NCBI GenBank assembly: GCA_963731795.1
Contig: CAVSWU010000003.1
Span: 966,216-1,030,215, forward strand
DNA: 64,000 nucleotides
Source of the DNA: an uncultured delta proteobacterium
GTDB lineage: Bacteria > Myxococcota > Myxococcia > Myxococcales > Myxococcaceae
Reading direction: 5' to 3'
In this document: piece by piece, positions 4,428 to 44,155 of the stretch
Layout: each line of letters begins with the position of its first letter
Numbering within the stretch: the stretch's first letter is position 1
Made by a program: the position numbers and the translations under genes
The notes under the pieces: generated by a model
Database searches by the model: none
What the model was told of the DNA's origin: nothing
What the model saw: only the letters and a program-made list of their open reading frames with translations

Positions 4428-4517
4428 GGTCGTCCTCTCTGCAGAGAACGTTGTCATCGCAAGTTCCGGCCACAAGAGGCTTATTCCGATCCCATTCGAG
4501 CACGGCAGCCATTAGCG

Positions 4518-19284: not shown

Positions 19285-20449
19285 ATGCAAGCCCCCTCCG
19301 AGACCGCTCCCACCCTGGCCGAGGCCCCCGCCCCCGAACCCAGAGGGCTCCAGGCGTGGAGCTTCCCGTTCTGGGTCTGGCTCGGATCGCGGCTCGTGCT
19401 CCTCTACGCCGCCTGGATCGGGATGGCCGTGGAGTCTCGCTTCGGTCAATACCCGACGCAGGCTGCCTCCAACGAACCCGCTCCCGCCGCTCCTGGCGCC
19501 GCTGTGCCGATGGGACTGCGTCTGGTACTTCTACGTCGCGCGGGATGGGTACGCCAACGGCCCGCAGACGAACTTCTTCCCGCTGCTCCCGCTGCTCAGC
19601 CACGCGCTGGGGTTCGTCACACGGATCCCCGCGCAGTGGACAGTCCTCATCGTCAGCAACGCCGCCTGCCTCTGCGCGTACGCGGTGCTGTTCCGGATGT
19701 TCCGGCGGCTCGCGGGCGAGCAGAGCGCGCGCTGGGGCGTGGCCCTGTTCGCCGCCTTCCCCTTCGCCTTCTTCCACGCCGCCGGGTTCCCCGAGTCGTT
19801 GATGGTGCTGCTCTCGGCGCTCGCCATGGACTTCGCGCTGCGAGGCCAGCACTTCCGAGCGGGGCTGGCACTCGCCGCGGGCATGCTCTCGCGGCACCTG
19901 ACGATGCTCACGGGCTTGGGGCTCCTGGTCGCGCAGGTGCAGCAGCGCCCCTCGCTCGGGCGGTTCTTCAAGAGCCCGGCGTGGCTGGCGTTGTCGTTCC
20001 CATGGCTGTCACTGCTCGGCTACTGCCTGTACCAGCAGCTCGTCTGGGGAGACTTCCTCGCCTTCTACAAAGCGAGGGCGCTCTGGGGAGTGTCCGCCTA
20101 CTGGGGCATCGCCGATCAGCTTCGAGTCCTCGGATCGCCCGATCCCATGATGCAGCTCATCAACAGCTACCTCCCGTTCGCGGCGATGGGAGTGGTGGGC
20201 GTGCTGCTCACGGCCCGGCACCGGGCCTGGTGGAGCGTGACGGCCTTCGGGCTCGCGCTCAGCACCATCATCTGGGCGATCGGCCTGTGGGCGCTGGGCC
20301 GCTACTCCGCCTCATGCTGGCCCGCGTTCCTGGGGTGGGGCGCGCTCGCGGCGCGCCGGCCCACCCTGGGGATGGTGCTACTGACCGTCTTCGGGGTGAT
20401 GCAGGGGCTCTTCTTCTTCCTGTTCATCCACCAGTACCCCGTGATGTGA
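19285..20449 (+). pseudogene. polytopic membrane glycosyltransferase (GT87/DUF2029-like), one frameshift
   Basis: The N-terminus 'MQAPSE...WSFPFWVWLGSRLVLLYAAW' is in one frame. After ~19480 the conserved 'WDCVWYF' motif and ~9 TM helices continue in the frame of ORF 18842..20449. Confidence 0.6.
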
Positions 20450-22443: not shown

Positions 22444-25687
<3,244 letters not shown>

Positions 25688-25819: not shown

Positions 25820-26651
25820 ATGCGTCGCTGGTCCCTGGCCCTGCTCGTCACCCTCGCCTCTCCTGCCCTCGCCCAGGCTCCCGAGCCGGCCCAGGCTCCG
25901 CCGGCCGCCCCGGCTCCCGAGGCCAAGCCCGAGGCGAAGCCCCCGGAGAAGAAGACTCCTGCCGCCGCGGAGTCCCAGAAGACCCCCGAGGCGACTGGTC
26001 CAGCAGCCAAGGCTTCCTCCCCTGCTCCCTCCGAGGCCAGGCCAGCCCCGGCCGCTGAGGCGCCTGCCACGAAGAAGGCGGCTCCGGCCGCTGAGGCGCC
26101 TGCCACGAAGCATGAGGCCGCCGCTCCGAGCCCTGCTCCGGCGGCTCCCAAGCCGCAGACCGCCGCTCCGAGCCCTGCTCCGGCCGCTCCGAAGCCTCAG
26201 GCTGCCGCCCCGAGCCCCGCTCCGGCCGCCACGCCGGGAGCATCAGGTGAACTCGACGAGGAGGGAGCCAGGCGCCAGCGGGTGAAATCGGAGGCCCGGT
26301 TCATCCTCGAGAACCTCCTGCTTGGGGACGCGCGCCGAGCCACGAGCGAGGTGGCCTACCCGTTCCAACTCGAGGACAAGAAGTACGGCACTCCCGAGGA
26401 GCTTGTGGCCGCCTGGGTGAAGCAGACTCCGCGTGAAGCGCACGGACCTCATCACCCTCTACGACATCGAGGTCCTCTCGCTGGCGGAGATGGAGAAGAA
26501 GTACGGCAAGCCGCCGGCGCGGCTCGGGCTCGGCAACCTGAAGGACGCGGACGTCTACGCGGCCGTGGGCAACCTCTCCGGGCACGCGGCGGTGCTGCTC
26601 TTCCGCGCCCCGAAGGACGGCCCAGCGAAGGCGTTCGCGTACACGGACTGA
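25820..26651 (+). pseudogene. secreted Pro/Ala/Lys-rich repeat protein with a conserved C-terminal domain, one frameshift
   Basis: Signal peptide '[20 protein letters not shown]' followed by [11 protein letters not shown] and [13 protein letters not shown] repeats. The frame changes near 26430 into the ORF ending 'GKPPARLGLGNLKDADVYAAVGNLSGHAAVLLFRAPKDGPAKAFAYTD*'. Confidence 0.5.
26041..26230 (+). repeat. in-frame tandem DNA repeats (42 bp x2; 48 bp x2.5) encoding [11 protein letters not shown] and [13 protein letters not shown] units
   Basis: Near-identical units are visible directly in the nucleotide sequence 26041-26230. Confidence 0.6.
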
Positions 26652-26711
26652 GGCCAGCAGTTTCACCCAGCACTGCGTGACTCAAGTCGCCGTTCTTCTG
26701 ACTCCAGAGGT

Positions 26712-26737
26712 GGCGGCTTCGATTCCCGCCGCCTCCA
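26712..26737. other. tRNA 3'-end-like fragment (T-arm plus acceptor half): possible att-site remnant
   Basis: 'GCGGC-TTCGATT-CCCGC-CGCCTCCA' has a canonical TTCGATT T-loop with 4 of 5 T-stem pairs (position 53 is C, not G). No matching 5' half or anticodon arm lies upstream. It sits ~90 bp from the integrase stub. Confidence 0.2.
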
Positions 26738-26827
26738 TCCCGAGAAGCCCAGCAATCTCAACGGGTTGCGGGGTTTTTCTTTGTCCTCGTTTTCATCATG
26801 TGCCCTCAGTGTGCCCCTCTGGCGTCT

Positions 26828-27053
26828 CTAGCCCAGAGCGGCGCGCGGCTGGGGGACGGGCCGATCCAACTCCTGCACCGCGCTCTCCCGCGCCTCGGGC
26901 GACAGGTGCGCGTACCTCATGGTCATTTCGATGGTCGCGTGACCCATCAACTCCTGGATGACCTTGAGAGCAACGCCCCGCATCGCGAGGTGGCTGCCGC
27001 AGGTGTGCCTAGGTCGTGCCAGCCGGTGGAACCCTCCGGGCAGCTGACTCCTG
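26828..27053 (-). pseudogene. tyrosine recombinase/integrase C-terminal remnant (~70 aa, catalytic Arg replaced by Gly)
   Basis: The minus-strand translation reads '...GWHDLGHTCGSHLAMRGVALKVIQELMGHATIEMTMRYAHLSPEARESAVQELDRPVPQPRAALG*'. The HxxR box is degenerate (HDLG) and the catalytic Tyr region is present. There is no upstream ORF and it is absent from the ORF track (no Met). Confidence 0.55.
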
Positions 27054-27293
27054 CCCTACGCAGCGCCCACAGGAACGGGTGCTGAAAGCCAGTTGCCGCC
27101 CGATATCGTGACGGAAGCGGACATCATGCGACAAACGCTCTAGCGTCAGTGCGCCACGAGCCCCGTAGCGGCACAGCCCCCGGCTTGGACACGAGGCAGT
27201 GTGGCCGAACGTTCAGAACGCCCTAGTGGCCTGCATGATCATCCCTGGAGCGTTCACGCTCCGCCTCGTACCGTGCTAAGAAAGCAGCACGTT

Positions 27294-29192
27294 ATGCTGA
27301 CCAAACTTGAATTATCGCGATTCCGGGGCTTCCGCCAAATCGAGGTCGGGCTCAAACCCGTGACTGTTGTCGCAGGACCTAACAGTTCCGGCAAGACCTC
27401 CATTCTCCATGCTGTCCGCCTTGCCTGCGCAGCTCTCGCACAAGTCCTGGACGACGAAACGATCAGCCCACGTGTGGACGGCAACACGGTAAGAATCTGT
27501 AGCGACCTAGTGATCCGTGACCACACTCGGCTGATGCGGGTGGGTGAGTGGGAAGAAATCTTCACCAGCCGCGAGGTTGGCGAAAGCATCACCATGGCAA
27601 TTACTCTGGGGTTTGACGACGCCTCCCCCATCCAAAAACTCCAGGCAAGCCTGACCTATGCGCGTAACGGCTTGCCTAAGATCTCGATGGTGGCCCATAG
27701 CCCAGCGATTGCTGATGTCGTCAAGGATGTTGCCAAGAAGTCTAAACACCGTCCCCAGCGAATTCGTGATGCATTGCGTAGATTTCAGCCAATAGCCGTA
27801 CTAGTGCCGGCCTTTTACGGAGTTATTCTAACGGAAGAATACCGATCGAAGGCTGTCGCCAGTCGCCTCCTTGAGGGTGGAGAGCAAAGCCGCATCGTCC
27901 GAAATCTTGTTTCGCGCCTTGATCCCCCAGCCTTTACGAGGCTCAATACATTCCTGAGGCGAACCGTTAGTGCTGAACTCACATGGGCCACTCCTGCTTT
28001 GGAAGCAGAGAACACCGAAAGGCTGGAAGTCCGCTTTCGCGACTGGGATGGTGAACTAGAGTTAAGCTCAGCAGGGGCGGGGCTCGTCAATCTGATTGCG
28101 TTGTATGCAGCATTGGAACGTTATCGCCCAGAACGCGCGGACAATCGCACGCTCATTTTCTTGCTCGATGAGCCTGAAGCTCATCTTCATCCCAAGTTAC
28201 AAGGGGATATTGGCTTGGCGCTGGCTGAACTGACTCGCGAGTTCGGGGCGCAGGTGATTGCAGCAACACATTCCATAGAGATGATCAATCGACTGGGACA
28301 ACGGGACGACACTGTGCTGCTTCATATGGATCGCGTCAAATCTTCGGCTACGCCTCTCACTGGCGAAGCAGACATTGTCCGTGAGTTGAGTGCATGGTGC
28401 GATCTGTCTCCGTTTACAACGATTAATTTCCTAGCCTCGCGTCGCATTCTCTTCCATGAAGGGCCGTCGGATGACGAGGTTCTCTCCCGCTGCGCCTCCG
28501 CATATTTCCGTAACGACGATGCACGATTGCGCGCTTTTCGCCGTTGGACATTTGTGCCACTGGATGGCGCCAGCAATGCAGATGCCTCCAACATACTTGT
28601 GAAGGTGTTGTCATCAAAGGTGTTTCCGTCGCTCCCCAAGGGAGATACGGTGTCGGTGGTTCGAGTTCTCGACAGAGATTTTGAACGCAAGCCAGGCATC
28701 AATACAAAATCTCATCAGCCGCACATCTCAGAGACGCGAGTAGTGTGGTCGCGTTACAGTATTGAGTCGCTCTTTCTGAGCCCGGAGTGCCTTGCGGCTT
28801 GGATAACCCCTCTGCTTGAGGGCGTTAGCGAAACCCAGATTCGCACATGGGTAGAGGAAGGCATTGCGGCAGCCAACAAAGATCAAGAATTGGAAGACAA
28901 AGCGTTTGATGGGCTTGCTGCAGTCTTAAGAACTCAAGTGCAGCCAAAAGAAGTGAACCCTAAGGCGCGCGAACTGGCTCGCCAAGAGCCAGAGATTTGG
29001 CAGCAAGGTCGCGCGCGAGCGGGCGCTGTTCTCGCCTACGTCAGGAACAAATTGCCAGCTTCGATGCAGAATAAGGTACGCAGTAGTATTCCAGGCCTGT
29101 TGAAGGCAACTCCTATTGACAAGCTTGGCAGTCTCGATGTGGTGGTGCCGGAAGAGATTCGGAGATTGCTGGATCTCATGACGAAGGCGTAG
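27294..29192 (+). CDS. OLD-family ATP-dependent endonuclease (ABC ATPase plus TOPRIM): class-1-like single-gene defense candidate
   Basis: Walker A 'GPNSSGKTS', Walker B 'LIFLLDEPEAHLHP', signature 'VIAATHS', then TOPRIM motifs 'ILFHEGPSDDEVL', 'FVPLDGASNA', 'VVRVLDRDFE' and 'WSRYSIESLFL'. Local GC is ~52-55% against ~70% background. Confidence 0.75.
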   Translation: MLTKLELSRFRGFRQIEVGLKPVTVVAGPNSSGKTSILHAVRLACAALAQVLDDETISPRVDGNTVRICSDLVIRDHTRLMRVGEWEEIFTSREVGESITMAITLGFDDASPIQKLQASLTYARNGLPKISMVAHSPAIADVVKDVAKKSKHRPQRIRDALRRFQPIAVLVPAFYGVILTEEYRSKAVASRLLEGGEQSRIVRNLVSRLDPPAFTRLNTFLRRTVSAELTWATPALEAENTERLEVRFRDWDGELELSSAGAGLVNLIALYAALERYRPERADNRTLIFLLDEPEAHLHPKLQGDIGLALAELTREFGAQVIAATHSIEMINRLGQRDDTVLLHMDRVKSSATPLTGEADIVRELSAWCDLSPFTTINFLASRRILFHEGPSDDEVLSRCASAYFRNDDARLRAFRRWTFVPLDGASNADASNILVKVLSSKVFPSLPKGDTVSVVRVLDRDFERKPGINTKSHQPHISETRVVWSRYSIESLFLSPECLAAWITPLLEGVSETQIRTWVEEGIAAANKDQELEDKAFDGLAAVLRTQVQPKEVNPKARELARQEPEIWQQGRARAGAVLAYVRNKLPASMQNKVRSSIPGLLKATPIDKLGSLDVVVPEEIRRLLDLMTKA

Positions 29193-29588
29193 GCCGCCTC
29201 AAGCGTGTGCGGAGCCGAAGCCGGAAGAGGCGAGTGTGCTGACTGAAGCGGCGGCGAGAGCGGAGCCATAGGAGCCGTCTGGAAATAACATTTCCAGTTC
29301 GACTGTTGTCAGAGCATGGATGGGGAAAGACGGACCTCCTGCCGGGTAAGTGGGTTTCCGGGCAGTACGCTCTGGCCGTCTGAGCCGCACCCGGGCGTGA
29401 AGCAACCCTGGAGCACAGGGAACGAGGCCCCCCTGAGGAGGAGGCCTGAGCAACAGAACCGTGTTCTGACCTGTCTTCTTCAGGCTCCCGGCCTTGGCGC
29501 GAATGTCGACGCGATGCAAGCGATCCGAGCCCCCCGTGCATCTCCCACACTTCTGCCTACCCAGGGACACGTTGCTGGGCTGTACTTT

Positions 29589-31142
29589 TCATCGCTGATC
29601 GCCTGGGCCGGAGGTGGGCTGGCGCTCAGGCGGAACGATCGGCACGTAGCACGCGCCCTGGTACACGTGGCCGCTGAGTGCCTCGCACCTCTCGCGATCC
29701 AACTTCACCCAACACCCTCCATTGAGGGCAACCAACTGCTTGTGAGGACACCGTCCCTTCGCATCGGGCCGCATCTGCCCCGGCAAGGGCTCGGGGAGCG
29801 GGTCCTCGGCTACCACCTCTCGCGAGGACTCGGGGGCTCCCTCCTCAGAGGCGATCGACGCGGCATCGCCGAGCCCCGCCGTGCCCGCGTCTGGCCGGTC
29901 CTTATCCGCAGCTTCTCTCCGAGCAAAAGAGGGGCTCTCCACGAAATGCCGGGCAACGGACCACCCCGCCCACGTGGCCAGCGCCAGGCCTGCAGCGGCT
30001 GTCGCAAGCCAGAGCCGCCGAGCCCATACCTGCGCTCGGGGCCTGACGCCTCGCGCGGAGACTCTCGCTCCAGCGGGCTCCTCGCTAACCTGTACCTCCC
30101 CCTCGGCCGCGTCCCGAGCGCGGTCGCTCACCTCGGCGGCGGGCACTTCCTCACGAGGCGGCACCGAAGGCCGTGGCAGTTCCTCCGCCACACTCGGCGG
30201 AGTGCTCACCGGCGCGAGGCGCTCCCCGGCCTGATCCAGCAGTTCGGCCAGCTCCGCCGCGCTGCCACGCTCCTCGGGGCGCACCGACAGCATGCGCACA
30301 ATCAACTCCCTCAGCGGCGCAGCCACGCGTGCCTCGTCCCGCAGCCCGGGCGGACACACCACGCTCTCCACCTGCCAGTTCCCTTCCTCATCCTGGCTGG
30401 GCTCGCCAAGCTCCGGGTACTCACCGCTCACCAGCCGGCACGCCGTCACTCCCAGCGCGTACACATCATCCGCGGGGCTGGCGCTGTAGCGCGCCCTGGG
30501 CTCTCGCAGGCTCCGCAGTTCGAGCAGGGCCGCCTCCGGCGAGCGGTAGGCCAGTGTCCCGGGTACCACCGTGGGCGGCGTGAGGGTCGCCGCCTCCGCG
30601 TAGGAGCCCGCACCGAAGTCCGTGAGGATCGCTCGACCGTCCGTGCGCCGCACCAGGATGTTGCCGCCCTTCACGTCCCGGTGCAGGCCCCCTTGCGCAT
30701 GCAGCGCCTCCAGCGCCCGCGCGAGCTGGGCCAGCAGCCTCAGCACCTGCTCACAGCTCGGAGCTTGCCGCAGGGCCCACTCGTACAGCGGCACTCCCTC
30801 CACCCACTGCATCACCAGATACGGATGACGGGTGCCTCCGGGGTGCTGCCACTCTCCCGAGTCCACCAGGCGCGGCACACTCGGATGCTCCACTCGCGAC
30901 AGCAGCGTCGCCTCACGCGCGAACCGCGGATCTCCCGGGTACATGGCCACCTTGAGCGCCACCGGGCCGGCCTGCTCCTGCCCCACTCGCTCCGCCTGAT
31001 ACACCGCTCCCTGGATGCCCTGCCCCGCCCACGCCACCACCCGCCACGGCCCCACCTCCATCCCTGGACAGAGCAAGGCCGGATGCGGCGCGGGGGCGGG
31101 AGGGCTCTTCATGCGGGGCCTCGCGGAAGAAGGGCTGCTCAC
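29589..31142 (-). CDS. serine/threonine protein kinase with TM segment and Cys-rich C-terminal extracytoplasmic domain
   Basis: Hanks motifs 'ALKV', 'HRDVKGGNIL', 'DFG' and 'GTLAYRSPE', a mid TM helix 'LWLATAAAGLALATWAGW', and a C-terminal 6-Cys region. Start is either 31142 or the Met at 31061. Confidence 0.8.
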   Translation of the reverse strand: MSSPSSARPRMKSPPAPAPHPALLCPGMEVGPWRVVAWAGQGIQGAVYQAERVGQEQAGPVALKVAMYPGDPRFAREATLLSRVEHPSVPRLVDSGEWQHPGGTRHPYLVMQWVEGVPLYEWALRQAPSCEQVLRLLAQLARALEALHAQGGLHRDVKGGNILVRRTDGRAILTDFGAGSYAEAATLTPPTVVPGTLAYRSPEAALLELRSLREPRARYSASPADDVYALGVTACRLVSGEYPELGEPSQDEEGNWQVESVVCPPGLRDEARVAAPLRELIVRMLSVRPEERGSAAELAELLDQAGERLAPVSTPPSVAEELPRPSVPPREEVPAAEVSDRARDAAEGEVQVSEEPAGARVSARGVRPRAQVWARRLWLATAAAGLALATWAGWSVARHFVESPSFARREAADKDRPDAGTAGLGDAASIASEEGAPESSREVVAEDPLPEPLPGQMRPDAKGRCPHKQLVALNGGCWVKLDRERCEALSGHVYQGACYVPIVPPERQPTSGPGDQR

Positions 31143-31277: not shown

Positions 31278-31661
31278 ATGGACGCCTTTCGGGCCGACAG
31301 GGAGCGGAAGTTCGCTCGCGATGTGGCCAGGTACCTGCGTGACCGCTTTCCCGGTGCTGTCGCCGGCCTCGACGATGCCGAACTCGAGCGACGCGGGCTC
31401 GTGGGGCTCGCGAGAGGGCGCAGGCACGGGCTGAGTGACGAGCGGACCCTCCTCTCGTTCATCTCGCTCATGTTCCGATTCGCGCCGAACTTCGATGAGC
31501 ACCCACGCCTCGGAGCAGTGCTGAGGGCGAGCGGAGAGCCCCCCGGGCTCCGATTCCAGAGGATGACCGCGCTGGCGACGGAGGCGGACTGGGAGGAGGT
31601 CCGGCGCAGGCGGGATGAATCGGCCTGGGAGGATGGCACCTGCTCCACCCGGCATCCCTGA
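31278..31661 (+). CDS. small hypothetical helical protein upstream of the large metzincin-like gene
   Basis: Track ORF 31200..31661 has protein-like composition and no frameshift. The start is uncertain (31200 or the Met at 31278) and no homology was recognised. Confidence 0.3.
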   Translation: MDAFRADRERKFARDVARYLRDRFPGAVAGLDDAELERRGLVGLARGRRHGLSDERTLLSFISLMFRFAPNFDEHPRLGAVLRASGEPPGLRFQRMTALATEADWEEVRRRRDESAWEDGTCSTRHP

Positions 31662-31716
31662 TGTGCTGGCACGTGGGTTCCCGTGCCCTGTAACCACCGA
31701 TGTAGAAGGAGGGTGG

Positions 31717-34314
31717 ATGTATCCGCCGAAGCTCCTGTTCAAGGCCTTTCCCGAGGGGAAACCCTCCTCCCTGTCCCTGGAGCAATCCTGCTCACGCGAG
31801 AGCCTCAAGCGGTGCGGCATCACGGGCCTCACCCTGAAGCCTCACTCGGCGGAGGGCCACTTCTTCACGGCCCCCCATTCGCAGCTCGAGCCCGGAGCCG
31901 CGGGGCGGTATCAGCTCGCGCCAGGAGCGGACGAGGGGCTCAAGCTCGGTTGGTCCTTCTCCGGCTCCCAGCACATCCGCTCGGCGGACATCGAGCTCTA
32001 CACTCGCTCGTCGTCCCCCTCCGAGCCGTTCTGGCGGAGGATCCTGCACTGGAAGAACGCGGAGACCCGGAAGGACTCGGGAGAATGTCCCTTCGATGGA
32101 GTGCTGAGCAGCGGAGTGCGGGACGAGGGCGGGCTCGAAATCCTGGATGTGGCGGTGAACGTCTCGAAGGAAATGTTCCCGGCGGGTTGTCTGAGCGTCG
32201 AGCACGCGCCGTATCTGCTCAAGATGACGATCGCTCCCGAACCCGATGTGGCCGTGGAGGTCGGGTCCGCGTGGATATACCTGGACGTCGTGGCGGCGGA
32301 GATCCGGCTCTCCCTGGGTGACGAGAACATGCTGCGCTCGTCTCCCGAGGGGGACAAGGAGCGGGCCATCCTCCGGGAGATGCGGGAGATGGGGTCCTTT
32401 CCAGCGAATGAAGAAAGCCTCGCGAAGGTCCTGCTGCCCAGCAACATCTTCAGCACGAACACCGATGAGTGGCACGAGCTGAACCAGGATGTGCCGTTCG
32501 AGAGGTACAAGGCCGCATGGGGGAACGGGCCGGAGCTTCCCCTCTTCGCGGAGTTCCTCGTGCGCGACTCGAAGGGCAACGCCGTGTCCGCTCCCCGGGC
32601 CGTGGCGGGGTCCCAACTCCTGTGGGACTGGAGCGAGCCCCTCTCGCCGCCACTCAAGCTCAACGGGGGCCGCACGGCCGAAGGGGACGAGGCGCACATC
32701 AACGACTACCTCGAGCGCTACACGAAGGGCAAGGCGCCCTCCTCGGCCTTCTCCAAGGGGAACAACTGTCACGCCGACCATGGTGGAAAGGGGGGCTCGA
32801 GCGATGCGCTGGACCGCGTCCTCTCCCTGGTCTCCCATGAGAGCCGGAGCGGGTTCCCGTTCGAGGTGCGGAGCCCCGCGAACCGGACATGGGCCGCCAT
32901 CAGCCGCATCCAGGGCGAGGGCCCCCATGCCGGCAAGACCGGGGTGATCTTCCAGCCCTCACGCATGGCCGGAGATTCGTACCGGGTGAGCGCCTGCTGG
33001 TGTTACGACAGTGAGGGAACCGGTGTCGGACTGCTCGACGACACCCAGGAGGACATCCCGGTGACCCTCCGTGGGACGAGCGGTACCTTCCAGGTCTGGC
33101 GGCAGCTCCACCTGGTCCAATATGTCGACCAGGCGCTTCGGCCCCTCCAGGTCGTCACGTCAGCACCTTCTCTCCAGACGAGCACTTCCGGCAAAACGCC
33201 GAAGGAGGAGTTCGACGAGCTCGACAAGATGCTGAAGGCCGCCTTCGGCGAAGGTGGCTTCAGTTACGAAGACTGGCTTCCGAGGTGGCTCAAGACCGGG
33301 AAGGATCAGGACCTCATCCTCGGAGAGCTGGAGCTGGATAATGCCATGGGAAAGGCCCAGAGACTTCGGGACCTCCACAACCAACAACAGCTCGAGTCCG
33401 ACCAGAGCCTCCAGCCGTCGCTCCCCTCCGCCAAGACGCCCGAGCCCGCCTGGAAGCGGGAGTTCGATCGGCTCAGCCGGCGCTACGCGCACGCATTCAT
33501 CGATTTGAAGTGCTTCTTCCAAGAGCCCACGTCCATTCAGGGCTTCCACCAGAAGGTCATCACCGCGGTCCAGAGGCTCGGCAGCGATGTCATCTCCGCG
33601 GCGGTGAAGCTCGATGACGAGAGGTGGCTCAAGGGGGCCTACGTCCTGCATTTCCGCAGCTACTCCGATTTCAAGAAGGAGTACCTGAAGGGGTCCGGAG
33701 GCAGGTCGCTCAAGGACCTGGAGCAATACTTCTCCGGGAATGGGCCGAAAGAGAGACAGCGGTGCGGGCCGGGGACCAGCGACCAGGAACTGTGTGAACT
33801 CTACGAGGGGAGCAACAAGGGATGGGCCCAGTGGGTCCTCGAGAGGGTCGTCGAGGAGGATCTCTCGGGGGCGGCGGAGGGCATCTATATCTTCGACCTG
33901 CCGGGCTGCTGCTGCCGAGACCATGAGGAGAATGGCGAGCCGCTGCAGGTGACCATCCTGGGTTTTGCCATGCTCTTCCCCTCGACGAAGGGGAAGGTAG
34001 CAGTGTTCGCCAACCTATGTAGCGTCGAGGACTACGATGATGCCAGGAGGAAGTCCGGCGCGGAGAAGGATGTCGAGCTGAGCATGGGGGTCACCGCGGC
34101 CCATGAGCTCGGGCACAGTCTCTTCCTGGCGCATGCACCGCTCGCCGCGGATGATCGGCCCGAGAATAAAAGTCACACCGCAGGGGTCGAGCCAGACTTC
34201 CACCACTCGGAGATGCTGACCTGCCTCATGGGCTACCACGCGAACAACCAGTACTTCTGTGGTCTGTGCCTGCTCCGGCTCAGGGGGTGGTCGCGACAGA
34301 AGTTGAAGTCTTGA
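31717..34314 (+). CDS. large (865-aa) hypothetical protein with a C-terminal matrixin-like zinc-metallopeptidase motif
   Basis: A strong AGGAGGG RBS lies before ATG 31717. There is no signal peptide. The motif 'AAHELGHSLFLAHA' (HExxHxxxxxH, compare matrixin 'HEFGHSLGLSHS') is followed by a possible Met-turn 'CLMGY'. A CCC/CxxC-rich segment 'LPGCCCRDHEENG' is present. GC is ~60-62%. Confidence 0.55.
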   Translation: MYPPKLLFKAFPEGKPSSLSLEQSCSRESLKRCGITGLTLKPHSAEGHFFTAPHSQLEPGAAGRYQLAPGADEGLKLGWSFSGSQHIRSADIELYTRSSSPSEPFWRRILHWKNAETRKDSGECPFDGVLSSGVRDEGGLEILDVAVNVSKEMFPAGCLSVEHAPYLLKMTIAPEPDVAVEVGSAWIYLDVVAAEIRLSLGDENMLRSSPEGDKERAILREMREMGSFPANEESLAKVLLPSNIFSTNTDEWHELNQDVPFERYKAAWGNGPELPLFAEFLVRDSKGNAVSAPRAVAGSQLLWDWSEPLSPPLKLNGGRTAEGDEAHINDYLERYTKGKAPSSAFSKGNNCHADHGGKGGSSDALDRVLSLVSHESRSGFPFEVRSPANRTWAAISRIQGEGPHAGKTGVIFQPSRMAGDSYRVSACWCYDSEGTGVGLLDDTQEDIPVTLRGTSGTFQVWRQLHLVQYVDQALRPLQVVTSAPSLQTSTSGKTPKEEFDELDKMLKAAFGEGGFSYEDWLPRWLKTGKDQDLILGELELDNAMGKAQRLRDLHNQQQLESDQSLQPSLPSAKTPEPAWKREFDRLSRRYAHAFIDLKCFFQEPTSIQGFHQKVITAVQRLGSDVISAAVKLDDERWLKGAYVLHFRSYSDFKKEYLKGSGGRSLKDLEQYFSGNGPKERQRCGPGTSDQELCELYEGSNKGWAQWVLERVVEEDLSGAAEGIYIFDLPGCCCRDHEENGEPLQVTILGFAMLFPSTKGKVAVFANLCSVEDYDDARRKSGAEKDVELSMGVTAAHELGHSLFLAHAPLAADDRPENKSHTAGVEPDFHHSEMLTCLMGYHANNQYFCGLCLLRLRGWSRQKLKS

Positions 34315-35889: not shown

Positions 35890-36363
35890 ATGAAAGCTCC
35901 GCGCCCCCTCCCGTTCCTGCTCGCGCTCGTGCTCGCCACCGTCGCGCAAGCCGGCGAGGATCCCGATTCCCTCACCGGCTTCTTCGAGGCCCAGTTCAAG
36001 GCATTCCCCGCGACGCAGGCTCCCTTGAAGGCCAAGGCCCAGATTCAATGGACTCCGAGGGCACGCCGCTATCGCACGCGGATCAAGGAGGCCTGGGCGG
36101 AGGCGAAGGAGCCGAACTTCGCGGGGCACTTCTACGCGGTGGAGAACATCGGCTGCGGTACCGGGTGCCAGGTCATCTTCGTCATCGACTGGAACACCGG
36201 CGAGATCTTCTCCCCACCCGAGGACCAATACTTCGCGGTGCGCAAGGACAGCCGGCTGATGATCCTGAAGCCCTACGACTTCTGCTCAGCGTACGGGCCG
36301 CCGATCCTGTTGGAGTTCACGGGGAAGCTCTTTCGCGAGGTGAAGCACGACAAGTGCAGATGA
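35890..36363 (+). CDS. secreted hypothetical protein
   Basis: Signal peptide 'MKAPRPLPFLLALVLATVAQA'. The mature domain has 4 Cys and no recognised family. Confidence 0.5.
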   Translation: MKAPRPLPFLLALVLATVAQAGEDPDSLTGFFEAQFKAFPATQAPLKAKAQIQWTPRARRYRTRIKEAWAEAKEPNFAGHFYAVENIGCGTGCQVIFVIDWNTGEIFSPPEDQYFAVRKDSRLMILKPYDFCSAYGPPILLEFTGKLFREVKHDKCR

Positions 36364-36469
36364 GGAGCAGTCGCGGGCGGAGGGACGCGATGGAAGCTGG
36401 CGCCACCATCCGCCTCCGAAGTATGCGCTCCACGTCGCGGAGAACCTCAATGCTGGAGTACTCCCCCTC

Positions 36470-37498
36470 ATGGCAGGACCTCTCGCAATCGTCATCCTGA
36501 TGCCCCTGCTCTCCGCGGCCGTACGGCTGGAGGGCTCGGCGGTCTGTCCCGCGCCGGACCGGGTCGAGGAGCGGCTCGCGCGGATCCTCCCGGAAGCGCC
36601 GGGGCCGCAGCATGTCGCGCGCGTGGATGGCACGGGTGCGATCCTGGTCCTCGAGCTCGCGACAGCAGAGGGCGCGGTGCTGGCGCGCAAGGAGCTTCCA
36701 CGCCGCAGCACCTGTGACGAGCTCGCGCAGGTGTCGGCCGTCATCATCGCCGCCTGGGAGGCTCGCTTCCGAGAGGGAACGCTCGTGCTTCCCGAAGCCG
36801 CGCCTCCCCTTCCCGCCGCACCTTCCGTTTCCGCCTCGCCGCCCCCTCCTGCCACACCTTCCGTTCCCGCCACACCGCCCCCCCTGGAGATACCTCCGCC
36901 TCCCGCGGCCCCTCTGCCTCCCGTGACACCTCCCCCGAGCGCGCTCGCGGGCCCCGTCGCGGAACCGTCCCAGCTCGCACCCTCGCTGCGTGTTCGCGGC
37001 GAGCTCGGAGCCGTGGCCGGGTTCTCGTCGCGCTGGGCCATCGGGGGCCTGGCCAGGATCTCGGTCGGGCGCGAGCGCTGGGCGATGGTCGCGCTCACCC
37101 TCCTCGAGACGCCACGCGAACTCACTCTGGGAGAAGGCGGTGTGCGCTGGAGCCGCCCCCTCCTGGGCGCAGGAGCGCGGTGGCGCCTCCTCGATAAGGG
37201 CCCCAGGCTCGAGCTCGAAGGCGGGGCCGCCGTGGCGTGGCTCGTGCTCCGCGGCACCGGCTTTGCCCGAAACGACACGGCCTCCGACATCGATCCCGCG
37301 GCCTGGGCTGGCGCCACGCTGTCCTGGAGAATGGGCTCCTGGCGCCCGTTCGTGGGAGCGCTCGGGCTGCTCTGGCTCCGCGAACAGCGCGCGCATGTGC
37401 GGACATCTATGACTTCCACCCCCACCGAGGACCCCGTCCGAGGACTTCCCCGGGGCGAGGTGATGGCGGTGGTGGGCCTCTCGCTTCCGGGCGACTGA
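36470..37498 (+). CDS. secreted hypothetical protein with Pro-rich linker
   Basis: N-terminal hydrophobic signal, a PPLPAAPSVSASPPPPATPSVPATPPP linker (27-bp imperfect DNA repeats) and a C-terminal domain predicted to be beta-rich. It immediately precedes the ECF sigma gene. Confidence 0.45.
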   Translation: MAGPLAIVILMPLLSAAVRLEGSAVCPAPDRVEERLARILPEAPGPQHVARVDGTGAILVLELATAEGAVLARKELPRRSTCDELAQVSAVIIAAWEARFREGTLVLPEAAPPLPAAPSVSASPPPPATPSVPATPPPLEIPPPPAAPLPPVTPPPSALAGPVAEPSQLAPSLRVRGELGAVAGFSSRWAIGGLARISVGRERWAMVALTLLETPRELTLGEGGVRWSRPLLGAGARWRLLDKGPRLELEGGAAVAWLVLRGTGFARNDTASDIDPAAWAGATLSWRMGSWRPFVGALGLLWLREQRAHVRTSMTSTPTEDPVRGLPRGEVMAVVGLSLPGD

Positions 37499-37539
37499 AA
37501 GGTTTCGGGGCGCAGGGGGCTGAGAGGGAGTTGACGAGT

Positions 37540-38097
37540 GTGGCCAAAATCGCGGCGCAGGCCGAGCGAGCAGCGGAGACGGAGGCAGCGGACGTCTTCC
37601 GCCGCCACGGAGCGGAGGTTGCGCGCTGGGCGTCGCGGCTGGGAGGCCCCGGCCTGGAGCTGGAAGACGTCGTGCAGGAGGTCTTCCTCAAGGTCCACCA
37701 ACTGCTGCCCTCCTGGCGCCCCGAGCGCGCGCAGCTCACCACCTGGCTGTACCGCATTACCGAGAACGTGGTGCGACACCGGCGCCGGAAGGAGCGGATG
37801 CGGCGCTGGCTCGGGGGCTCCGCCGAGGAGGTCGCGAGGGATCTCCCGAGCCCGTCGAGCACAGCCGAGGAGGAGCTCGCGAGGCAGCAGGTGCAGGCAC
37901 GCTTCTACCGTGCGCTCGAGGGCATGAATGAGCGCTACCGCTCCGTGTTGATCCTGTTCGAGCTCGAGGGCCTGTCCGGCGAGAAGATCGCGGCGCTGAT
38001 GGAGGCGAAGACCGCCACGGTGTGGGTGTGGCTCCACCGCGCGCGGGCCGACTTCCTCAAGAGACTCCAGCGCCTCATGCAAGAGGAGGGCGAGTGA
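37540..38097 (+). CDS. RNA polymerase sigma-70 factor, ECF subfamily
   Basis: Region 2 ('LEDVVQEVFLKVHQ', 'TWLYRITENV') and region 4 ('RSVLILFELEGLSGEKIAALMEAKTATVWVWLHRAR'). The GTG start at 37540 follows a GAGGGAG RBS; an alternative TTG lies at 37531. Confidence 0.75.
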   Translation: MAKIAAQAERAAETEAADVFRRHGAEVARWASRLGGPGLELEDVVQEVFLKVHQLLPSWRPERAQLTTWLYRITENVVRHRRRKERMRRWLGGSAEEVARDLPSPSSTAEEELARQQVQARFYRALEGMNERYRSVLILFELEGLSGEKIAALMEAKTATVWVWLHRARADFLKRLQRLMQEEGE

Positions 38098-39026
38098 TGT
38101 CCAGAGCTCCGCTCCAGCCCTGGAGGGAACAGCCGTCCTCCGCGGATCCGGTGGAGGCCGAGGCGATGCGCCTCGCCCGGGAGATGCCTCCCGCCGAGGC
38201 CCTGTCGCCCGAAGCGGCCGCGCGCATCTCCGCGAAGCTGGGCGCGCTGCCTCCGCCGCGAGGGGCGCGCCTGCCACGCGGCCTGATGATGCTCGGGGTC
38301 GGCGTGCTGGGGGTGGCGGCGGCGCTCGCCTTCGGGCTGAGCAGGCCGGCCAAGCCCCCCACACAGTCCCGAGCGGAGCGCACCGTCGAGGCCCCGAAGG
38401 TGGCCGCGCCAACGCCCCGAGCGCCTGAGCCCGTCGCGCCGCCAGTCCTCCCTCCGCCCGCGCGCCCCGAGGTGACGTCCGCGCCGCCACCTCCGCCCAC
38501 TCGCAGGGAAGCGCGTCCGGAGAATGCGCTGCTGGAGGAGGCGAAGCTCCTCGGCAAGGCCGTGGAGCAGCTGCGGCGCGAGCAGAACCCGAAGGCGGCG
38601 CTGGCGACGCTCCAGCGATACTTCTCGCGCTACCCCCGGGGCGAGCTGCGCGGGGAGGCGGAGGTCACCCGCGTGGAGGCACTGCTTGGCAGCGGGCGGA
38701 GCGCCGAGGCGCTGACACACCTGGAGCAGCTCTCCCGCTCCGGCTTCGCGGGCCTGCCGCGCCCGCTCGAGCTCGCGCTCCAGCGCGCCCAGCTCCTGGC
38801 CGACGCGGGGCGCGCTCCGGAGGCCACCCGCGCGTTCTCCGAAGTGCTCGCCCAGCACCCGGCGCCCGCGCTCGAGGAGCGTGCGCTGTTCGGCCGCGCC
38901 GTGTGCCGCGCTCGCGCGGGAGATGAAGAGGGAATGCGCGCGGATCTCGAAGAGTACCTCCGGCGCTTCCCGGACGGGCGGTTCGCGGCGGAGGCTCGCG
39001 AGCGCCTGAAGCCGGAGCGTCCGTAA
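38097..39026 (+). CDS. anti-sigma factor (single TM, Pro-rich spacer, TPR-like C-terminal domain)
   Basis: The ATG overlaps the sigma-factor stop (TGATG). It has the TM 'LMMLGVGVLGVAAALAFGL' and C-terminal helical repeats. Confidence 0.6.
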   Translation: MSRAPLQPWREQPSSADPVEAEAMRLAREMPPAEALSPEAAARISAKLGALPPPRGARLPRGLMMLGVGVLGVAAALAFGLSRPAKPPTQSRAERTVEAPKVAAPTPRAPEPVAPPVLPPPARPEVTSAPPPPPTRREARPENALLEEAKLLGKAVEQLRREQNPKAALATLQRYFSRYPRGELRGEAEVTRVEALLGSGRSAEALTHLEQLSRSGFAGLPRPLELALQRAQLLADAGRAPEATRAFSEVLAQHPAPALEERALFGRAVCRARAGDEEGMRADLEEYLRRFPDGRFAAEARERLKPERP

Positions 39027-41837: not shown

Positions 41838-42566
41838 TCACCAGCTCAGCTCCGCGGGGGTCAGCTTGCGGGTGTTGTGCTCGATGCTGACAATGCGCCC
41901 ATCCGCGACGCGGATGATGCGGTCCGCCATCTTCGCGATGGGGGCGTTGTGGGTGATGACCGCGGTGGTGGTGCCCAGCTCGGTGTTGATGCGCGCCAGG
42001 GTGTCGAGGACGAGCTTGCCGGTGGCGTAGTCCAGCGCGCCCGTGGGCTCGTCGCACAGGAGCAGATCCGGGCGCTTGGCCACCGCGCGCGCGATGGCGA
42101 TGCGCTGCTGCTCGCCGCCGGAGAGCTGCGCGGGGAAGTGATCCATCCTCGCGCCGAGCCCTACCCTCTCCAGCGCATCCTCCGGCTTCAGGGGGTGCTC
42201 GGCGATCTCCGTCACCAGCGCGACGTTCTCCCGGGCGGTGAGGCTGGGGATGAGGTTGTAGAACTGGAAGACGAAGCCGACGTGTTCGCGGCGGTAGCGG
42301 GTGAGCTCGCGCTCATCGGCGCGGGCCAGATCATGGTCGCGGTAGGAGATCTCTCCGGCCGTCGGCACGTCGAGCCCCCCGATGATGTTGAGGAGCGTGG
42401 ACTTTCCGCTGCCCGACGGCCCGAGCAGGACGACGAACTCGCCCTCATACAAGTCCAGGTCCACTCCCCGCAGGGCGTGCACCTCCACCTCTCCCATGCG
42501 GTAGATCTTGGTGAGGCCGCGCGCCACGAGCACGGCACGCTGGGGCTCCGGGAGCGAAGTCGCCAT
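41838..42566 (-). CDS. ABC transporter ATP-binding protein (LolD/MacB-type), no adjacent permease
   Basis: Walker A 'GPSGSGKST', signature '[14 protein letters not shown]', Walker B '[12 protein letters not shown]', H-loop 'ITHN'. Confidence 0.8.
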
Positions 42567-42677
42567 GGACAGGCATGGTTTGGCATCCTCCCCCACCCTG
42601 GCATCGGCCCAGAGGGCAGGTGCTGGTGCTCTACCCGCCCTGCTCCCTTCCTAGGGCGGGAGTGCGCTCTGGCCGGG

Positions 42678-42710
42678 GGGTGACTGGAGCCACCACCCGG
42701 GTGACTGGAG
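42678..42710 (+). promoter_or_regulatory. tandem 12-bp direct repeats GGGTGACTGGAG (x2, 21-bp periodicity): candidate enhancer-binding-protein site
   Basis: Exact repeats ~100-130 bp upstream of the sigma54 promoter at 42807, the usual enhancer distance. Confidence 0.3.
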
Positions 42711-42806
42711 TCTCGCGGCGCCCTGCCTCGGAAGGCGGCCCGCGTGGTGGTGACTCGAATCTCTCCGGCCTCGGTTCCCAGGGGTTCTGCCCCAGGGAGC
42801 GAGCAC

Positions 42807-42822
42807 TGGCACACCTCCTGCT
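42807..42822 (+). promoter_or_regulatory. sigma54 promoter TGGCAC-N6-TGCT (shared extended motif TGGCACACCTCCTGCTCT)
   Basis: Perfect -24 TGGCAC and a -12 GC at the canonical spacing, ~65 nt upstream of ATG 42887, which has an AGGAG RBS. Confidence 0.45.
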
Positions 42823-42886
42823 CTGAGGTGTCTCCGTCACTCACCAACGCTCTCACCCCACGGAGAGCCACCCCCAGGAGCCCGCC

Positions 42887-44119: not shown

Positions 44120-44155
44120 CCCCGGACCGCTCCACCCCTTCCCGAGGACTCCACC

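What the first reader, a model, noticed from the sequence alone, without database searches (positions are those of the whole stretch)
26712..29500. Low-GC islet: tRNA-3'-like fragment, dead integrase stub and an intact OLD-family ATPase-TOPRIM nuclease
GC drops from ~70% to ~52-58% between ~27.1 and 29.3 kb. The only intact gene there encodes a 633-aa protein with a complete ABC-ATPase (Walker A/B, signature, H-loop) fused to a TOPRIM domain ('FHEGPSDDEV', 'DGASN', 'LDRDFE', 'IESLFL'). This is the architecture of P2 Old and class-1 OLD nucleases. It is not Gabija, because no UvrD-like gajB follows. It is not PARIS, because the TOPRIM is fused rather than on a separate AriB. A ~70-aa C-terminal fragment of a tyrosine integrase with a degenerate HxxR box sits immediately upstream, next to a tRNA T-arm/acceptor-like fragment. 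The islet looks like a decayed integrative element that left a single-gene defense module in a myxobacterial chromosome. OLD homologues in this lineage are essentially uncharacterised.
Basis: partly seen in the sequence, partly recalled or inferred. Interest (0 to 1): 0.6.

Follow-up and report, generated by a model that had tools for sequence, protein, structure and literature searches.

The report
Solo OLD-type nuclease gene, AriB-like domain
A myxobacterial chromosome has recently acquired one intact gene for an ATP-driven nuclease of the OLD anti-phage family, sitting beside the wreck of a mobile element; the gene is real, but it is a new member of a known kind rather than a new kind of system.

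Summary
One gene (27294-29192, +, 632 aa) is the lowest-GC stretch of the window: 54.1% GC against 68.5%, 4.7 sd below the mean.

- **ATPase half:** a complete ABC-ATPase with Walker A, signature, Walker B and H-loop motifs.
- **C-terminal half:** no Pfam or PADLOC model matches it alone, but a confident model folds as a TOPRIM domain plus a helical bundle. An invariant E389-x3-D393 / D460-R-D462 / E491 acidic set is present.
- **Closest match for the ATPase half:** class 1 Thermus OLD by sequence, not AriA.
- **Partner genes:** none is conserved across nine homologue contexts, so this is not Gabija.
- **Flanking remnants:** the "tRNA-like" fragment is a tmRNA (ssrA) 3' end. The integrase remnant is about 98 aa.
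- **Synteny:** in 16 relatives, synteny stops exactly at the islet's left edge. One relative carries two protease genes in the same slot.

Its reason for excluding PARIS (fusion) is wrong, because fused AriA-AriB proteins are documented. The verdict is a new member of the OLD family with an AriB-type nuclease module. Its substrate is unknown. The assembly contains indel errors.

The parts
26690..26740 (+). Fragment matching the 3' end (T-arm and acceptor strand) of tmRNA/ssrA. Probably an att-site remnant of an ssrA-targeting integrative element.
   Evidence: Rfam RF00023 model positions 321-374 of 374, E 3.4e-4, cut off at the 5' side. There is one copy in the window. The 20-mer lies in tmRNA genes in 67 of 124 metagenomic occurrences and in tRNA genes in none. 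It is absent from the loci of relatives and of homologues L001-L027.
26752..26782 (+). Terminator-like hairpin followed by a T run, directly after the tmRNA-like fragment.
   Evidence: Terminator scan, stem 26752-26769 with tail GGGGTTTTTC. The Rfam RybB-type terminator alignment covers the same bases.
26828..27123 (-). C-terminal remnant (about 98 aa plus stop) of a tyrosine recombinase. The HDLRH box and the catalytic Tyr region are present, the N-terminal two thirds are missing, and there is a 1-nt frame shift at 27010.
   Evidence: PF00589 positions 143-170 of 172, E 1.6e-6, for the 51-aa ORF. Positions 110-170, E 1.3e-14, for the frame-joined 98 aa.
27200..29300 (.). Low-GC segment (0.50-0.60 in 100-nt windows), coextensive with the nuclease gene.
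27294..29192 (+). Intact gene for a 632-aa OLD-family ATPase-TOPRIM protein (stop codon included).
   Evidence: ORF. Full-length alignment with 39 homologues at 42-63% identity. Full-length model pLDDT 89.6.
27294..28298 (+). ABC-ATPase domain (aa 1-335).
   Evidence: Pfam AAA_15 E 2.5e-22 and AAA_21 E 1e-18, plus DUF2813. The best solved relative by profile is class 1 TsOLD 6p74, E 2.2e-15.
27375..27398 (+). Walker A motif GPNSSGKT (aa 28-35).
   Evidence: G28, N30, S31, G33 and K34 are invariant in 40 sequences.
28062..28085 (+). ABC signature-like motif LSSAGAGL (aa 257-264).
   Evidence: A260, G261 and G263 are invariant.
28152..28193 (+). Walker B and D-loop region LIFLLDEPEAHLHP (aa 287-300).
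   Evidence: D292, E293, P294, E295, A296 and H297 are invariant.
28263..28274 (+). H-loop ATHS (aa 324-327).
   Evidence: T325 and H326 are invariant.
28443..28778 (+). TOPRIM core (about aa 384-495). It carries the invariant acidic set E389 and D393 (28458-28472), D460-R461-D462 (28671-28679) and E491 (28764-28766).
28782..29189 (+). C-terminal helical bundle (about aa 497-632) with invariant G572, R575 and R584.
   Evidence: Model secondary structure. 193 residues align to AriB, which is a toprim plus a C-terminal helical bundle (PMC10802264). Conserved Arg residues.
29193..29588 (.). Non-coding right-hand junction between the nuclease gene and the convergent Ser/Thr kinase gene (29589-31142, -). 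No att repeat was found.

Best explanation
The gene encodes a stand-alone, single-polypeptide member of the OLD family of ATPase-TOPRIM nucleases. It belongs to a small, discrete clade found mostly in Myxococcota. In this clade the ATPase half resembles class 1 OLD, GajA and PtuA, while the nuclease half (TOPRIM plus helical bundle) is of the AriB (PARIS) type.

It arrived by horizontal transfer into a variable chromosomal slot just downstream of carB and a lineage-specific gene. It lies next to the remains (tmRNA 3'-end att fragment plus truncated integrase) of an ssrA-targeting integrative element.

Inferred mechanism: the ABC-ATPase heads dimerise or oligomerise around ATP and hold the covalently attached TOPRIM in check. 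A phage-derived cue sensed by the ATPase part licenses two-metal cleavage by the E389/D393/D460/D462/E491 site. The result is abortive-infection-type arrest.

Substrate: I lean towards RNA (tRNA-like targets, as for AriB), because the module is AriB-like and lacks any conserved lysine. DNA nicking as in class 1 OLD is nearly as likely.

Shown here: gene integrity, motifs, fold, family limits, lack of a partner gene, foreign composition, absence from relatives. Inferred: defence role, trigger, substrate, oligomeric state.
For: - Gene integrity and ATPase motifs: intact ORF aligned end to end with 39 homologues; Walker A, signature, Walker B and H-loop are invariant.
- C-terminal fold: confident model, pLDDT 86, pTM 0.83.
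- Foldseek on the C-terminal model: AriB 8v46_D E 5e-4 and 8ux9_A E 1e-3, both prob 1.00; the next best hit is E > 0.17.
- Active site: the five-residue acidic pattern has the same layout as AriB E26/D30/D88/E90/E122 (PMC11464382).
- No lysine is conserved at 80% or more in the nuclease half. AriB and M5 RNase also lack the BpOLD K562 equivalent (PMC10802264).
- Full-length model (pLDDT 89.6): matches GajA, TsOLD, PtuA and Eco8 OLD at E about 1e-12.
- Family profile against PDB: TsOLD is best at 2.2e-15, AriA only 2e-3.
- PADLOC: best hits are AriA, NsnB, AriAB, Old and GajA.
- Family size: an exhaustive profile search with the C-terminal half finds only 118 representatives among 1.84 billion proteins, nearly all fused proteins of about 640 aa. 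The remote outgroups score best on AriAB or AriB.
- No partner gene is conserved in nine homologue contexts.
- Composition: gene GC 54% against 68.5% for the window. In all nine homologue loci the gene is at or below both flanks in GC, typically 3-10 points lower (one right flank ties at 0.665).
- Sixteen syntenic relatives lack the gene, and L001 has two trypsin-like genes in the same slot before a collinear kinase.
- Mobile-element remnants sit directly upstream.
Against: - No functional data exist for any member of this clade.
- No Pfam, PADLOC or NCBIfam model recognises the nuclease half on its own. Only 5 of 25 members give a weak OLD-like_TOPRIM hit (best E 0.007), and none hits DUF4435.
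- The gene is not in a recognisable defence island. Its neighbours are a kinase, unknown proteins and a histidine kinase.
- It is absent from phage records. In viral contigs only ATPase-motif hits were found.
- The ATPase half is not AriA-like. That makes a PARIS-style release mechanism impossible to assume, and release of the nuclease cannot occur in a fused protein anyway.
- An archaeal OLD-family ATPase (Cran1) acts in the cell cycle and not in defence (PMC12796447), so family membership alone does not prove a defence role.
Confidence: 0.5

Rival explanations
1. It is a classical class 1 OLD nuclease. On this view a single-gene ATPase-TOPRIM enzyme nicks or degrades DNA (P2 Old, Thermus OLD, the Vibrio cholerae nicking OLD), and the resemblance to AriB is only shared TOPRIM ancestry.
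For: - Single gene with no conserved partner, which is how class 1 is defined (PMC10568477).
- TsOLD is the best solved relative of the family profile, at 2.2e-15, and ties for the top of the full-length fold search.
- Weak Pfam OLD-like_TOPRIM hits occur in 5 of 25 members.
- NCBI and UniRef name some members 'ATP-dependent nuclease' or 'GajA/Old nuclease/RecF-like'.
Against: - No conserved lysine is available to play the role of BpOLD K562 (PMC10802264).
- Neither the PADLOC Old model nor Pfam PF20469 reaches the nuclease half of this protein.
Confidence: 0.27
2. It is a genuine merged PARIS system (an AriA-AriB fusion). On this view it senses phage anti-restriction proteins such as Ocr and answers by cleaving specific tRNAs in the anticodon stem.
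For: - Fused AriA-AriB polypeptides are documented (PMC11464382).
- PADLOC AriA (1.9e-22) and AriAB (5e-21; protein residues 279-504 on model positions 323-530 of 694) are among the best hits.
- AriB is the best structural match of the nuclease half.
- The outgroups P0222, P0227, P0226 and P0219 score best on AriAB, and P0225 scores on AriB.
Against: - Pfam DUF4435, the AriB family, matches none of 25 members even at E 10.
- E. coli AriA is a poor match to the ATPase half: E 2e-3 by profile and not in the top 50 by fold.
- The ATPase domain is about 335 aa and the model shows no long coiled-coil insertions such as AriA IS1 and IS2 (PMC11464382).
- The AriAB score on this protein is probably driven by the Walker B/H-loop stretch, because the C-terminal half alone gives no PADLOC hit.
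- The PARIS mechanism needs release and dimerisation of free AriB, which a fusion cannot do in the same way.
Confidence: 0.13
3. The protein has a housekeeping or non-defence role (DNA repair, chromosome or cell-cycle function), as reported for the archaeal OLD-family ATPase Cran1.
For: - Family membership does not by itself imply defence (PMC12796447).
- Neighbours in most homologue loci are ordinary metabolic or regulatory genes, and there is no defence island.
Against: - The distribution is patchy: 16 syntenic relatives lack it.
- The genomic context differs in every genome examined.
- Its composition is strongly foreign.
- Mobile-element remnants are adjacent.
- A truncated copy sits next to an IS4 transposase on a cyanobacterial plasmid.
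All of these are typical of accessory, mobile genes.
Confidence: 0.06
4. The gene is an inert, recently landed passenger that is not expressed or not functional in this host.
For: - Its composition is unameliorated (GC3 55.6% in a 68.5% GC genome).
- No convincing sigma-70-type promoter lies upstream on the + strand.
- The flanking element is decayed.
Against: - The ORF is full length with every catalytic residue intact, although the surrounding assembly shows about one indel per kb.
- The promoter scan covers only sigma-70 consensus sites and is not informative for myxobacteria.
Confidence: 0.04

Closest known systems
Class 1 OLD family nucleases (P2 Old; Thermus scotoductus OLD, PDB 6p74; Vibrio cholerae nicking OLD)
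   Same: [quoted passage not shown]
- Encoded by a solitary gene without a conserved partner.
- TsOLD is the best solved sequence relative of the family profile (E 2.2e-15) and a joint top fold match for the full-length model.
   Different: - The nuclease half matches AriB better than TsOLD or BpOLD.
- Pfam OLD-like_TOPRIM does not reach threshold.
- The nuclease half has no conserved lysine.
- The protein is 632 aa with a large C-terminal helical bundle.
- Nothing is known about its substrate.
PARIS (class 4 OLD): AriA ATPase plus AriB DUF4435 TOPRIM nuclease, including fused AriAB forms
   Same: - The acidic active-site layout is the same as AriB E26/D30/D88/E90/E122.
- PADLOC AriA and AriAB models are among the best hits.
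- Fusion of the two parts is known (PMC11464382).
   Different: - No DUF4435 sequence match.
- The ATPase half is not close to E. coli AriA and lacks its coiled-coil inserts.
- DxD replaces AriB's DxE.
- The covalent link rules out the release-and-dimerise activation shown for PARIS.
- Trigger and tRNA targets are untested.
Gabija GajA (class 2 OLD)
   Same: ATPase-TOPRIM fusion. GajA 8sm3_A is the top full-length Foldseek hit at E 8e-13, and many PADLOC GajA models score about 1e-17.
ssrA (tmRNA)-targeting integrative elements and prophages
   Same: A tmRNA 3'-end copy followed by a terminator sits next to a tyrosine recombinase gene. This is the usual att-int layout. The same 20-mer occurs as stand-alone copies in many viral contigs.
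   Different: There is no ssrA gene in the window and no second att copy. The integrase has lost about two thirds of its length. Only one cargo gene remains, and its GC differs from that of the integrase remnant.

Membership tests
OLD family nucleases (general) | N-terminal ABC-type ATPase with Walker A, signature, Walker B and H-loop | tested here: met
   Pfam AAA_15 and AAA_21. The motifs are invariant in 40 sequences.
OLD family nucleases (general) | C-terminal TOPRIM domain with conserved metal-binding Glu and Asp residues | tested here: met
   Fold matches to AriB, BpOLD, TsOLD, GajA and small Toprim proteins. E389, D393, D460, D462 and E491 are invariant. Caveat: Pfam PF20469 is below threshold.
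Class 1 OLD | Solitary gene without a conserved partner (the class is defined by gene context, PMC10568477) | tested here: met
   Window neighbours are an integrase remnant and a convergent kinase. Nine homologue loci share no neighbour.
Class 1 / class 2 OLD | Catalytic lysine in the nuclease half (BpOLD K562 equivalent) required for DNA cleavage | tested here: inconclusive
   No Lys is conserved at 80% or more in aa 346-632. Invariant R575 and R584 could substitute. No structural superposition could be made with these tools.
Gabija (class 2 OLD) | [quoted passage not shown] | tested here: not met
   No such gene in the window or in homologue loci.
Retron-associated OLD (class 3) | Adjacent reverse transcriptase and retron ncRNA | tested here: not met
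   No reverse transcriptase among neighbours. No Rfam family reaches threshold anywhere in the window.
PARIS (AriA/AriB or fused AriAB) | Nuclease part belongs to DUF4435 (Pfam PF14491), the AriB family | tested here: not met
   No PF14491 hit for the window protein or for any of 25 family members at E up to 10. No PADLOC AriB hit for the C-terminal half alone.
PARIS (AriA/AriB or fused AriAB) | Nuclease part has the AriB fold (toprim plus C-terminal helical bundle) and the acidic pentad | tested here: met
   [not shown]
PARIS (AriA/AriB or fused AriAB) | ATPase part is AriA-like (coiled-coil insertions IS1 and IS2, hexamer-forming) | tested here: inconclusive
   The PADLOC AriA model is the best hit at 1.9e-22. 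Solved AriA scores only E 2e-3 by profile and is not in the top 50 by fold. The model shows no long coiled coil.
PARIS (AriA/AriB or fused AriAB) | Triggered by anti-restriction proteins (Ocr) and cleaves tRNA | not testable with these tools
   Needs experiments.
Tyrosine recombinase (Phage_integrase, PF00589) | Complete catalytic domain with R..HxxR..Y, plus N-terminal DNA-binding domains | tested here: not met
   Only model positions 110-170 of 172 are present: the HDLRH box (after joining two frames) and the Tyr region. There is no room for the rest before the nuclease gene. It is a remnant.
tmRNA (Rfam RF00023) | Full-length tmRNA with tRNA-like domain, pseudoknots and tag reading frame | tested here: not met
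   Only the last 54 model positions match, at 13.7 bits against a gathering score of 47. ARAGORN finds no tmRNA in the window. It is a fragment.

The most novel reading that the evidence does not exclude
The clade could be a distinct fifth lineage of OLD-family systems. It would be a self-contained single-chain hybrid in which an OLD/GajA-type ATPase directly gates an AriB-type RNA-cleaving TOPRIM in cis. That would be the fused, ancestral-like counterpart of PARIS. It would show how a tRNA-cutting effector can be activated without being released from its sensor, in myxobacteria whose phage defences are almost unstudied.
Probability: 0.2. Interest if true: 0.6.

Novelty: new member of a known kind. 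Interest (0 to 1): 0.38.

Why it matters
If the inferred function holds, this is a compact one-gene anti-phage nuclease from a lineage (Myxococcota) in which OLD-type systems have not been tested.

- **Link between two branches:** it joins an OLD-like ATPase to an AriB-like nuclease module, so it connects class 1 OLD and PARIS, two branches that are usually treated separately.
- **Mechanistic question:** because the nuclease cannot be released from its ATPase, its activation must differ from PARIS. Its substrate (RNA or DNA) would show which features of TOPRIM nucleases decide substrate choice.
- **Annotation gap:** the roughly 290-aa nuclease half is invisible to the Pfam, PADLOC and NCBIfam models when searched alone. 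A model built from this family would improve defence-system annotation.
- **Limit:** beyond these points the finding is an ordinary example of a horizontally acquired accessory gene.

Tried and rejected
1. Sequence-only detection of the TOPRIM domain. Pfam, PADLOC and NCBIfam on aa 341-632 gave nothing. A 25-sequence profile against PDB sequences gave only chance hits. The fold search was needed.

2. Exact look-up of the window protein's own contig failed. Cluster look-ups gave no accession or organism name.

3. A simple indel test against relatives was not possible. Synteny ends at 26.65-26.67 kb in all 16 loci, and nothing from 26.7 to 45 kb recurs within their 10-kb flanks. Only L001 retains a collinear kinase that brackets the slot.

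4. Search for att repeats flanking the islet found only short, chance-level repeats.

5. A resident tRNA as integration target is rejected. Relatives have no tRNA or tmRNA gene after the upstream gene. The ARAGORN 'tRNA-Ala' at 20309-20398 has no Rfam support.

6. A two-gene (split) version on the Leptolyngbya plasmid pLBX is rejected. The match is one reading frame, 5'-truncated and annotated in pieces next to an IS4 transposase.

7. Phage carriage: no hit in phage records. The three viral-contig hits cover only the Walker B/H-loop region.

8. A defence-island context was not found.

9. Reading the frameshifts as evidence of gene decay is rejected as unsafe. carB is split into four frames while staying 90-96% identical to a relative, so the assembly has indel errors.


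Full report
**1. Observation**

The GC dip is real. GC falls from about 0.68-0.72 to 0.50-0.58 between roughly 27.2 and 29.3 kb. Among 1900-nt windows of the whole 64-kb window (mean 0.684, sd 0.030), the minimum of 0.543 starts at 27301. That is 4.7 sd below the mean.

The dip coincides with one ORF. The ORF listing gives 27201-29192 from a GTG. The ATG that matches all homologues is at 27294. The product is therefore 632 aa, with GC 54.1% and GC3 55.6%.

The segment holding the integrase remnant (26.8-27.1 kb) has host-like GC of 62-75%. The 'islet' is thus compositionally two things: a high-GC element remnant and a low-GC gene.

**2. The protein, ATPase half**

Pfam finds AAA_15 (E 2.5e-22), AAA_21 (E 1e-18) and DUF2813 over aa 1-335. 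In an alignment of 40 full-length homologues (42-63% identity), these motifs are invariant or nearly so:
- Walker A, GPNSSGKT
- signature-like LSSAGAGL
- Walker B/D-loop, LLDEPEAHLHP
- H-loop, ATHS

A profile of the family against PDB sequences ranks class 1 Thermus OLD first (6p74, E 2.2e-15). PtuA and GajA follow at about 1e-11, and E. coli AriA reaches only E 2e-3.

**3. The protein, nuclease half**

Searched alone, aa 341-632 hit nothing meaningful in Pfam, PADLOC or NCBIfam: no Pfam or PADLOC hit at all, and one chance NCBIfam hit at E 0.21. A 25-sequence profile hit nothing meaningful in PDB sequences. Scanning the 25 members one by one gave only weak hints of TOPRIM-clan families: OLD-like_TOPRIM in 5 (best E 0.007), RloB in 2, DUF3226 in 1, and DUF4435 in none.

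An AlphaFold2 model of aa 345-632 built from that alignment is confident (pLDDT 86.3, pTM 0.83). Its fold matches are as follows.

| Search | Match | Score |
|---|---|---|
| Foldseek vs PDB | AriB 8v46_D | E 5e-4, prob 1.00 |
| Foldseek vs PDB | AriB 8ux9_A | E 1e-3, prob 1.00 |
| Foldseek vs PDB | all other chains | E > 0.17 |
| Foldseek vs PDB | BpOLD C-terminal region | rank 14 |

The TOPRIM call is therefore correct, and the closest solved relative of this module is AriB.

The invariant acidic residues are E389 and D393 (after strand 1), D460 and D462 (after strand 3) and E491. This reproduces the layout of the AriB active site E26/D30/D88/E90/E122 (PMC11464382, PMC10802264).

No lysine is conserved in this half. 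The conserved basic residues are all arginines. AriB and M5 RNase likewise lack the lysine that BpOLD needs for DNA cleavage (PMC10802264).

**4. Whole protein and family**

The full-length model (pLDDT 89.6, pTM 0.66) matches GajA, TsOLD, PtuA and retron-Eco8 OLD at about E 1e-12. AriA is not among the first 50 hits.

PADLOC's best full-length hits are AriA (1.9e-22), NsnB, fused AriAB (5e-21), Old (4e-18) and many GajA models. These scores are dominated by the ATPase.

An exhaustive HMMER search with the nuclease-half profile against 1.84 billion representatives found only 118 proteins. Nearly all are fused proteins of about 640 aa or fragments of them. The few remote hits score best on PADLOC AriAB (P0222 at 1.6e-32, P0227 at 7e-23, P0226 at 2e-18, P0219 at 6e-10) or weakly on AriB (P0225).

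Named members come mostly from Myxococcota: Sorangium, Hyalangium, Nannocystis, Sandaracinus, Pseudenhygromyxa and Polyangiaceae. The clade is small, discrete and always fused. It sits between class 1 OLD (ATPase half) and PARIS AriB (nuclease half).

**5. Partners and context of homologues**

In nine loci from different genomes and metagenomes the neighbours differ every time. They include no UvrD-like helicase and no reverse transcriptase.

In every locus the gene is at or below both flanks in GC, typically 3-10 points lower; one right flank ties at 0.665. The window copy is the least ameliorated.

The gene is absent from phage records. The only plasmid relative covering the nuclease half is a 5'-truncated copy next to an IS4 transposase on Leptolyngbya pLBX.

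**6. The flanks in the window**

The upstream gene stops at 26651. Directly after it come these features:
- A 51-nt stretch (26690-26740) whose best Rfam assignment is the 3' end of tmRNA (positions 321-374 of 374, E 3.4e-4).
- A terminator-like hairpin with a T run.
- On the minus strand, the C-terminal part of a tyrosine recombinase.

The 20-mer TTCGATTCCCGCCGCCTCCA occurs in more than 120 metagenomic and more than 120 viral contigs. In the metagenomic set, 67 of 124 occurrences lie inside ARAGORN tmRNA genes and none lies in a tRNA gene. In viral contigs, 58 are stand-alone copies, as expected for att sites. The fragment is therefore ssrA-derived, not tRNA-derived.

Joining two frames across a 1-nt shift at 27010 restores an HDLRH box in the recombinase remnant and raises the Pfam score from 28.5 to 54.7 bits. 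The N-terminal two thirds are missing, and the nuclease gene occupies that space.

No second att copy or flanking direct repeat exists.

**7. Synteny**

A scan of species-representative genomes with the upstream gene returned 16 loci: Myxococcaceae MAGs, Hyalangium, Corallococcus, Archangium and Cystobacter. Those loci that extend far enough upstream also keep carB next to that gene. None has the nuclease gene or the integrase remnant.

Translated similarity ends at 26,621-26,674 in every locus. Nothing from 26.7 to 45 kb recurs in their flanks.

- **L001:** the slot holds two trypsin-like genes. A minus-strand kinase follows that is collinear with the window's kinase (35% identity over the C-terminal 300 residues).
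- **L013:** its CarB is 96% identical to the window's. The slot there holds an unknown gene, a DUF2381 gene and an aminotransferase, with its own GC dip.

The position is a variable slot, and the islet is one lineage-specific filling of it.

**8. Data-quality caveat**

carB in the window is split into four reading frames. Each is 90-96% identical to L013 CarB. The upstream gene also shifts frame where its L001 orthologue is intact. The assembly therefore carries about one indel error per kb.

Single frameshifts here, including the one in the integrase remnant, are not evidence of decay. The truncation of the integrase and the integrity of the nuclease ORF do not depend on this.

**9. Interpretation**

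The best-supported reading is a horizontally acquired, functional, single-gene OLD-family ATPase-TOPRIM nuclease. By the context-based scheme it is class 1 (PMC10568477), but it has an AriB-type nuclease module.

Strict PARIS membership is nevertheless not shown, for three reasons:
- DUF4435 is not detected.
- The ATPase half is not AriA-like.
- PARIS activation by release of AriB cannot apply to a fusion.

The mechanism is inferred, not shown. I propose an ATP-gated TOPRIM nuclease that acts in cis after a phage cue. I lean slightly towards RNA substrates.

Known relatives cover both substrate possibilities. P2 Old activation inhibits translation by an unknown route (PMC11464382). AriB cuts tRNA anticodon stems (PMC12409363). 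[quoted passage not shown]

**10. Verdict**

The finding is real and mostly correctly read, but of moderate interest. It is a new, uncharacterised member of a known family. It matters mainly because it links class 1 OLD and PARIS, and because current profile libraries miss its nuclease half.

Noticed in passing
window 22447-25687 (-), carB: carB is split into four reading frames (25687-24773, 24771-24181, 24176-22779, 22761-22447). Each is 90-96% identical to CarB of relative L013. This points to assembly indel errors at about one per kb rather than a pseudogene.
   Followed up: yes
window 25820-26651 (+): The lineage-specific gene just upstream of the islet has an Ala/Pro-rich N-terminus and no Pfam hit. 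It changes frame at about 26420-26435, while the L001 orthologue (4294-5151) is intact.
   Followed up: partly
window 20309-20398 (+): ARAGORN calls a 90-nt 'tRNA-Ala (cgc)' with the anticodon at position 39. Rfam finds no tRNA there at gathering or at E up to 1, so it is probably a false positive.
   Followed up: yes
L001 5155-7113; L013 10214-13707: The slot after the shared upstream gene is variable among Myxococcaceae. L001 has two trypsin-like peptidase genes. L013 has an unknown gene, a DUF2381 gene and an aminotransferase, with a GC dip to 0.61-0.64.
   Followed up: partly
L021 3064-4041; L022 9965-10774; L027 4270-4866; L031 7678-8478: Uma2-family (PF05685) endonuclease genes lie within about 1-4 kb of the homologue in four of ten contexts. 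This could be chance in genomes rich in Uma2, or a loose association.
   Followed up: no
L017 7943-9655 (Hyalangium minutum): A 570-aa gene with Spore_III_AA, PTPase and R3H domains overlaps the homologue's stop codon by 14 nt. It may be an operon partner in that lineage only.
   Followed up: no
protein P0175 (403 aa): The AriB-like C-terminal module (aa 137-398) is preceded by a weak HNH hit (aa 84-124) instead of the ATPase. The module may have an alternative fusion partner.
   Followed up: no
loci L032-L271 (metagenome and viral contigs): The tmRNA 3'-end 20-mer TTCGATTCCCGCCGCCTCCA is identical across many unrelated contigs. About half of its occurrences in viral contigs are stand-alone copies, consistent with widespread ssrA-targeting att sites.
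   Followed up: partly
window 31615-34314 (+): An 899-aa ORF with no Pfam hit has a mild GC dip (0.62-0.65 at 33-35 kb). The ORFs 36286-38490 (-) and 42212-44377 (-) also have no Pfam hit.
   Followed up: no
L031 (Leptolyngbya boryana plasmid pLBX) 5001-6293: A 5'-truncated relative (34% identity to aa 201-631) is annotated as two small CDS. It lies between a ParA gene and an IS4 transposase, with a tyrosine recombinase 4 kb away.
   Followed up: partly
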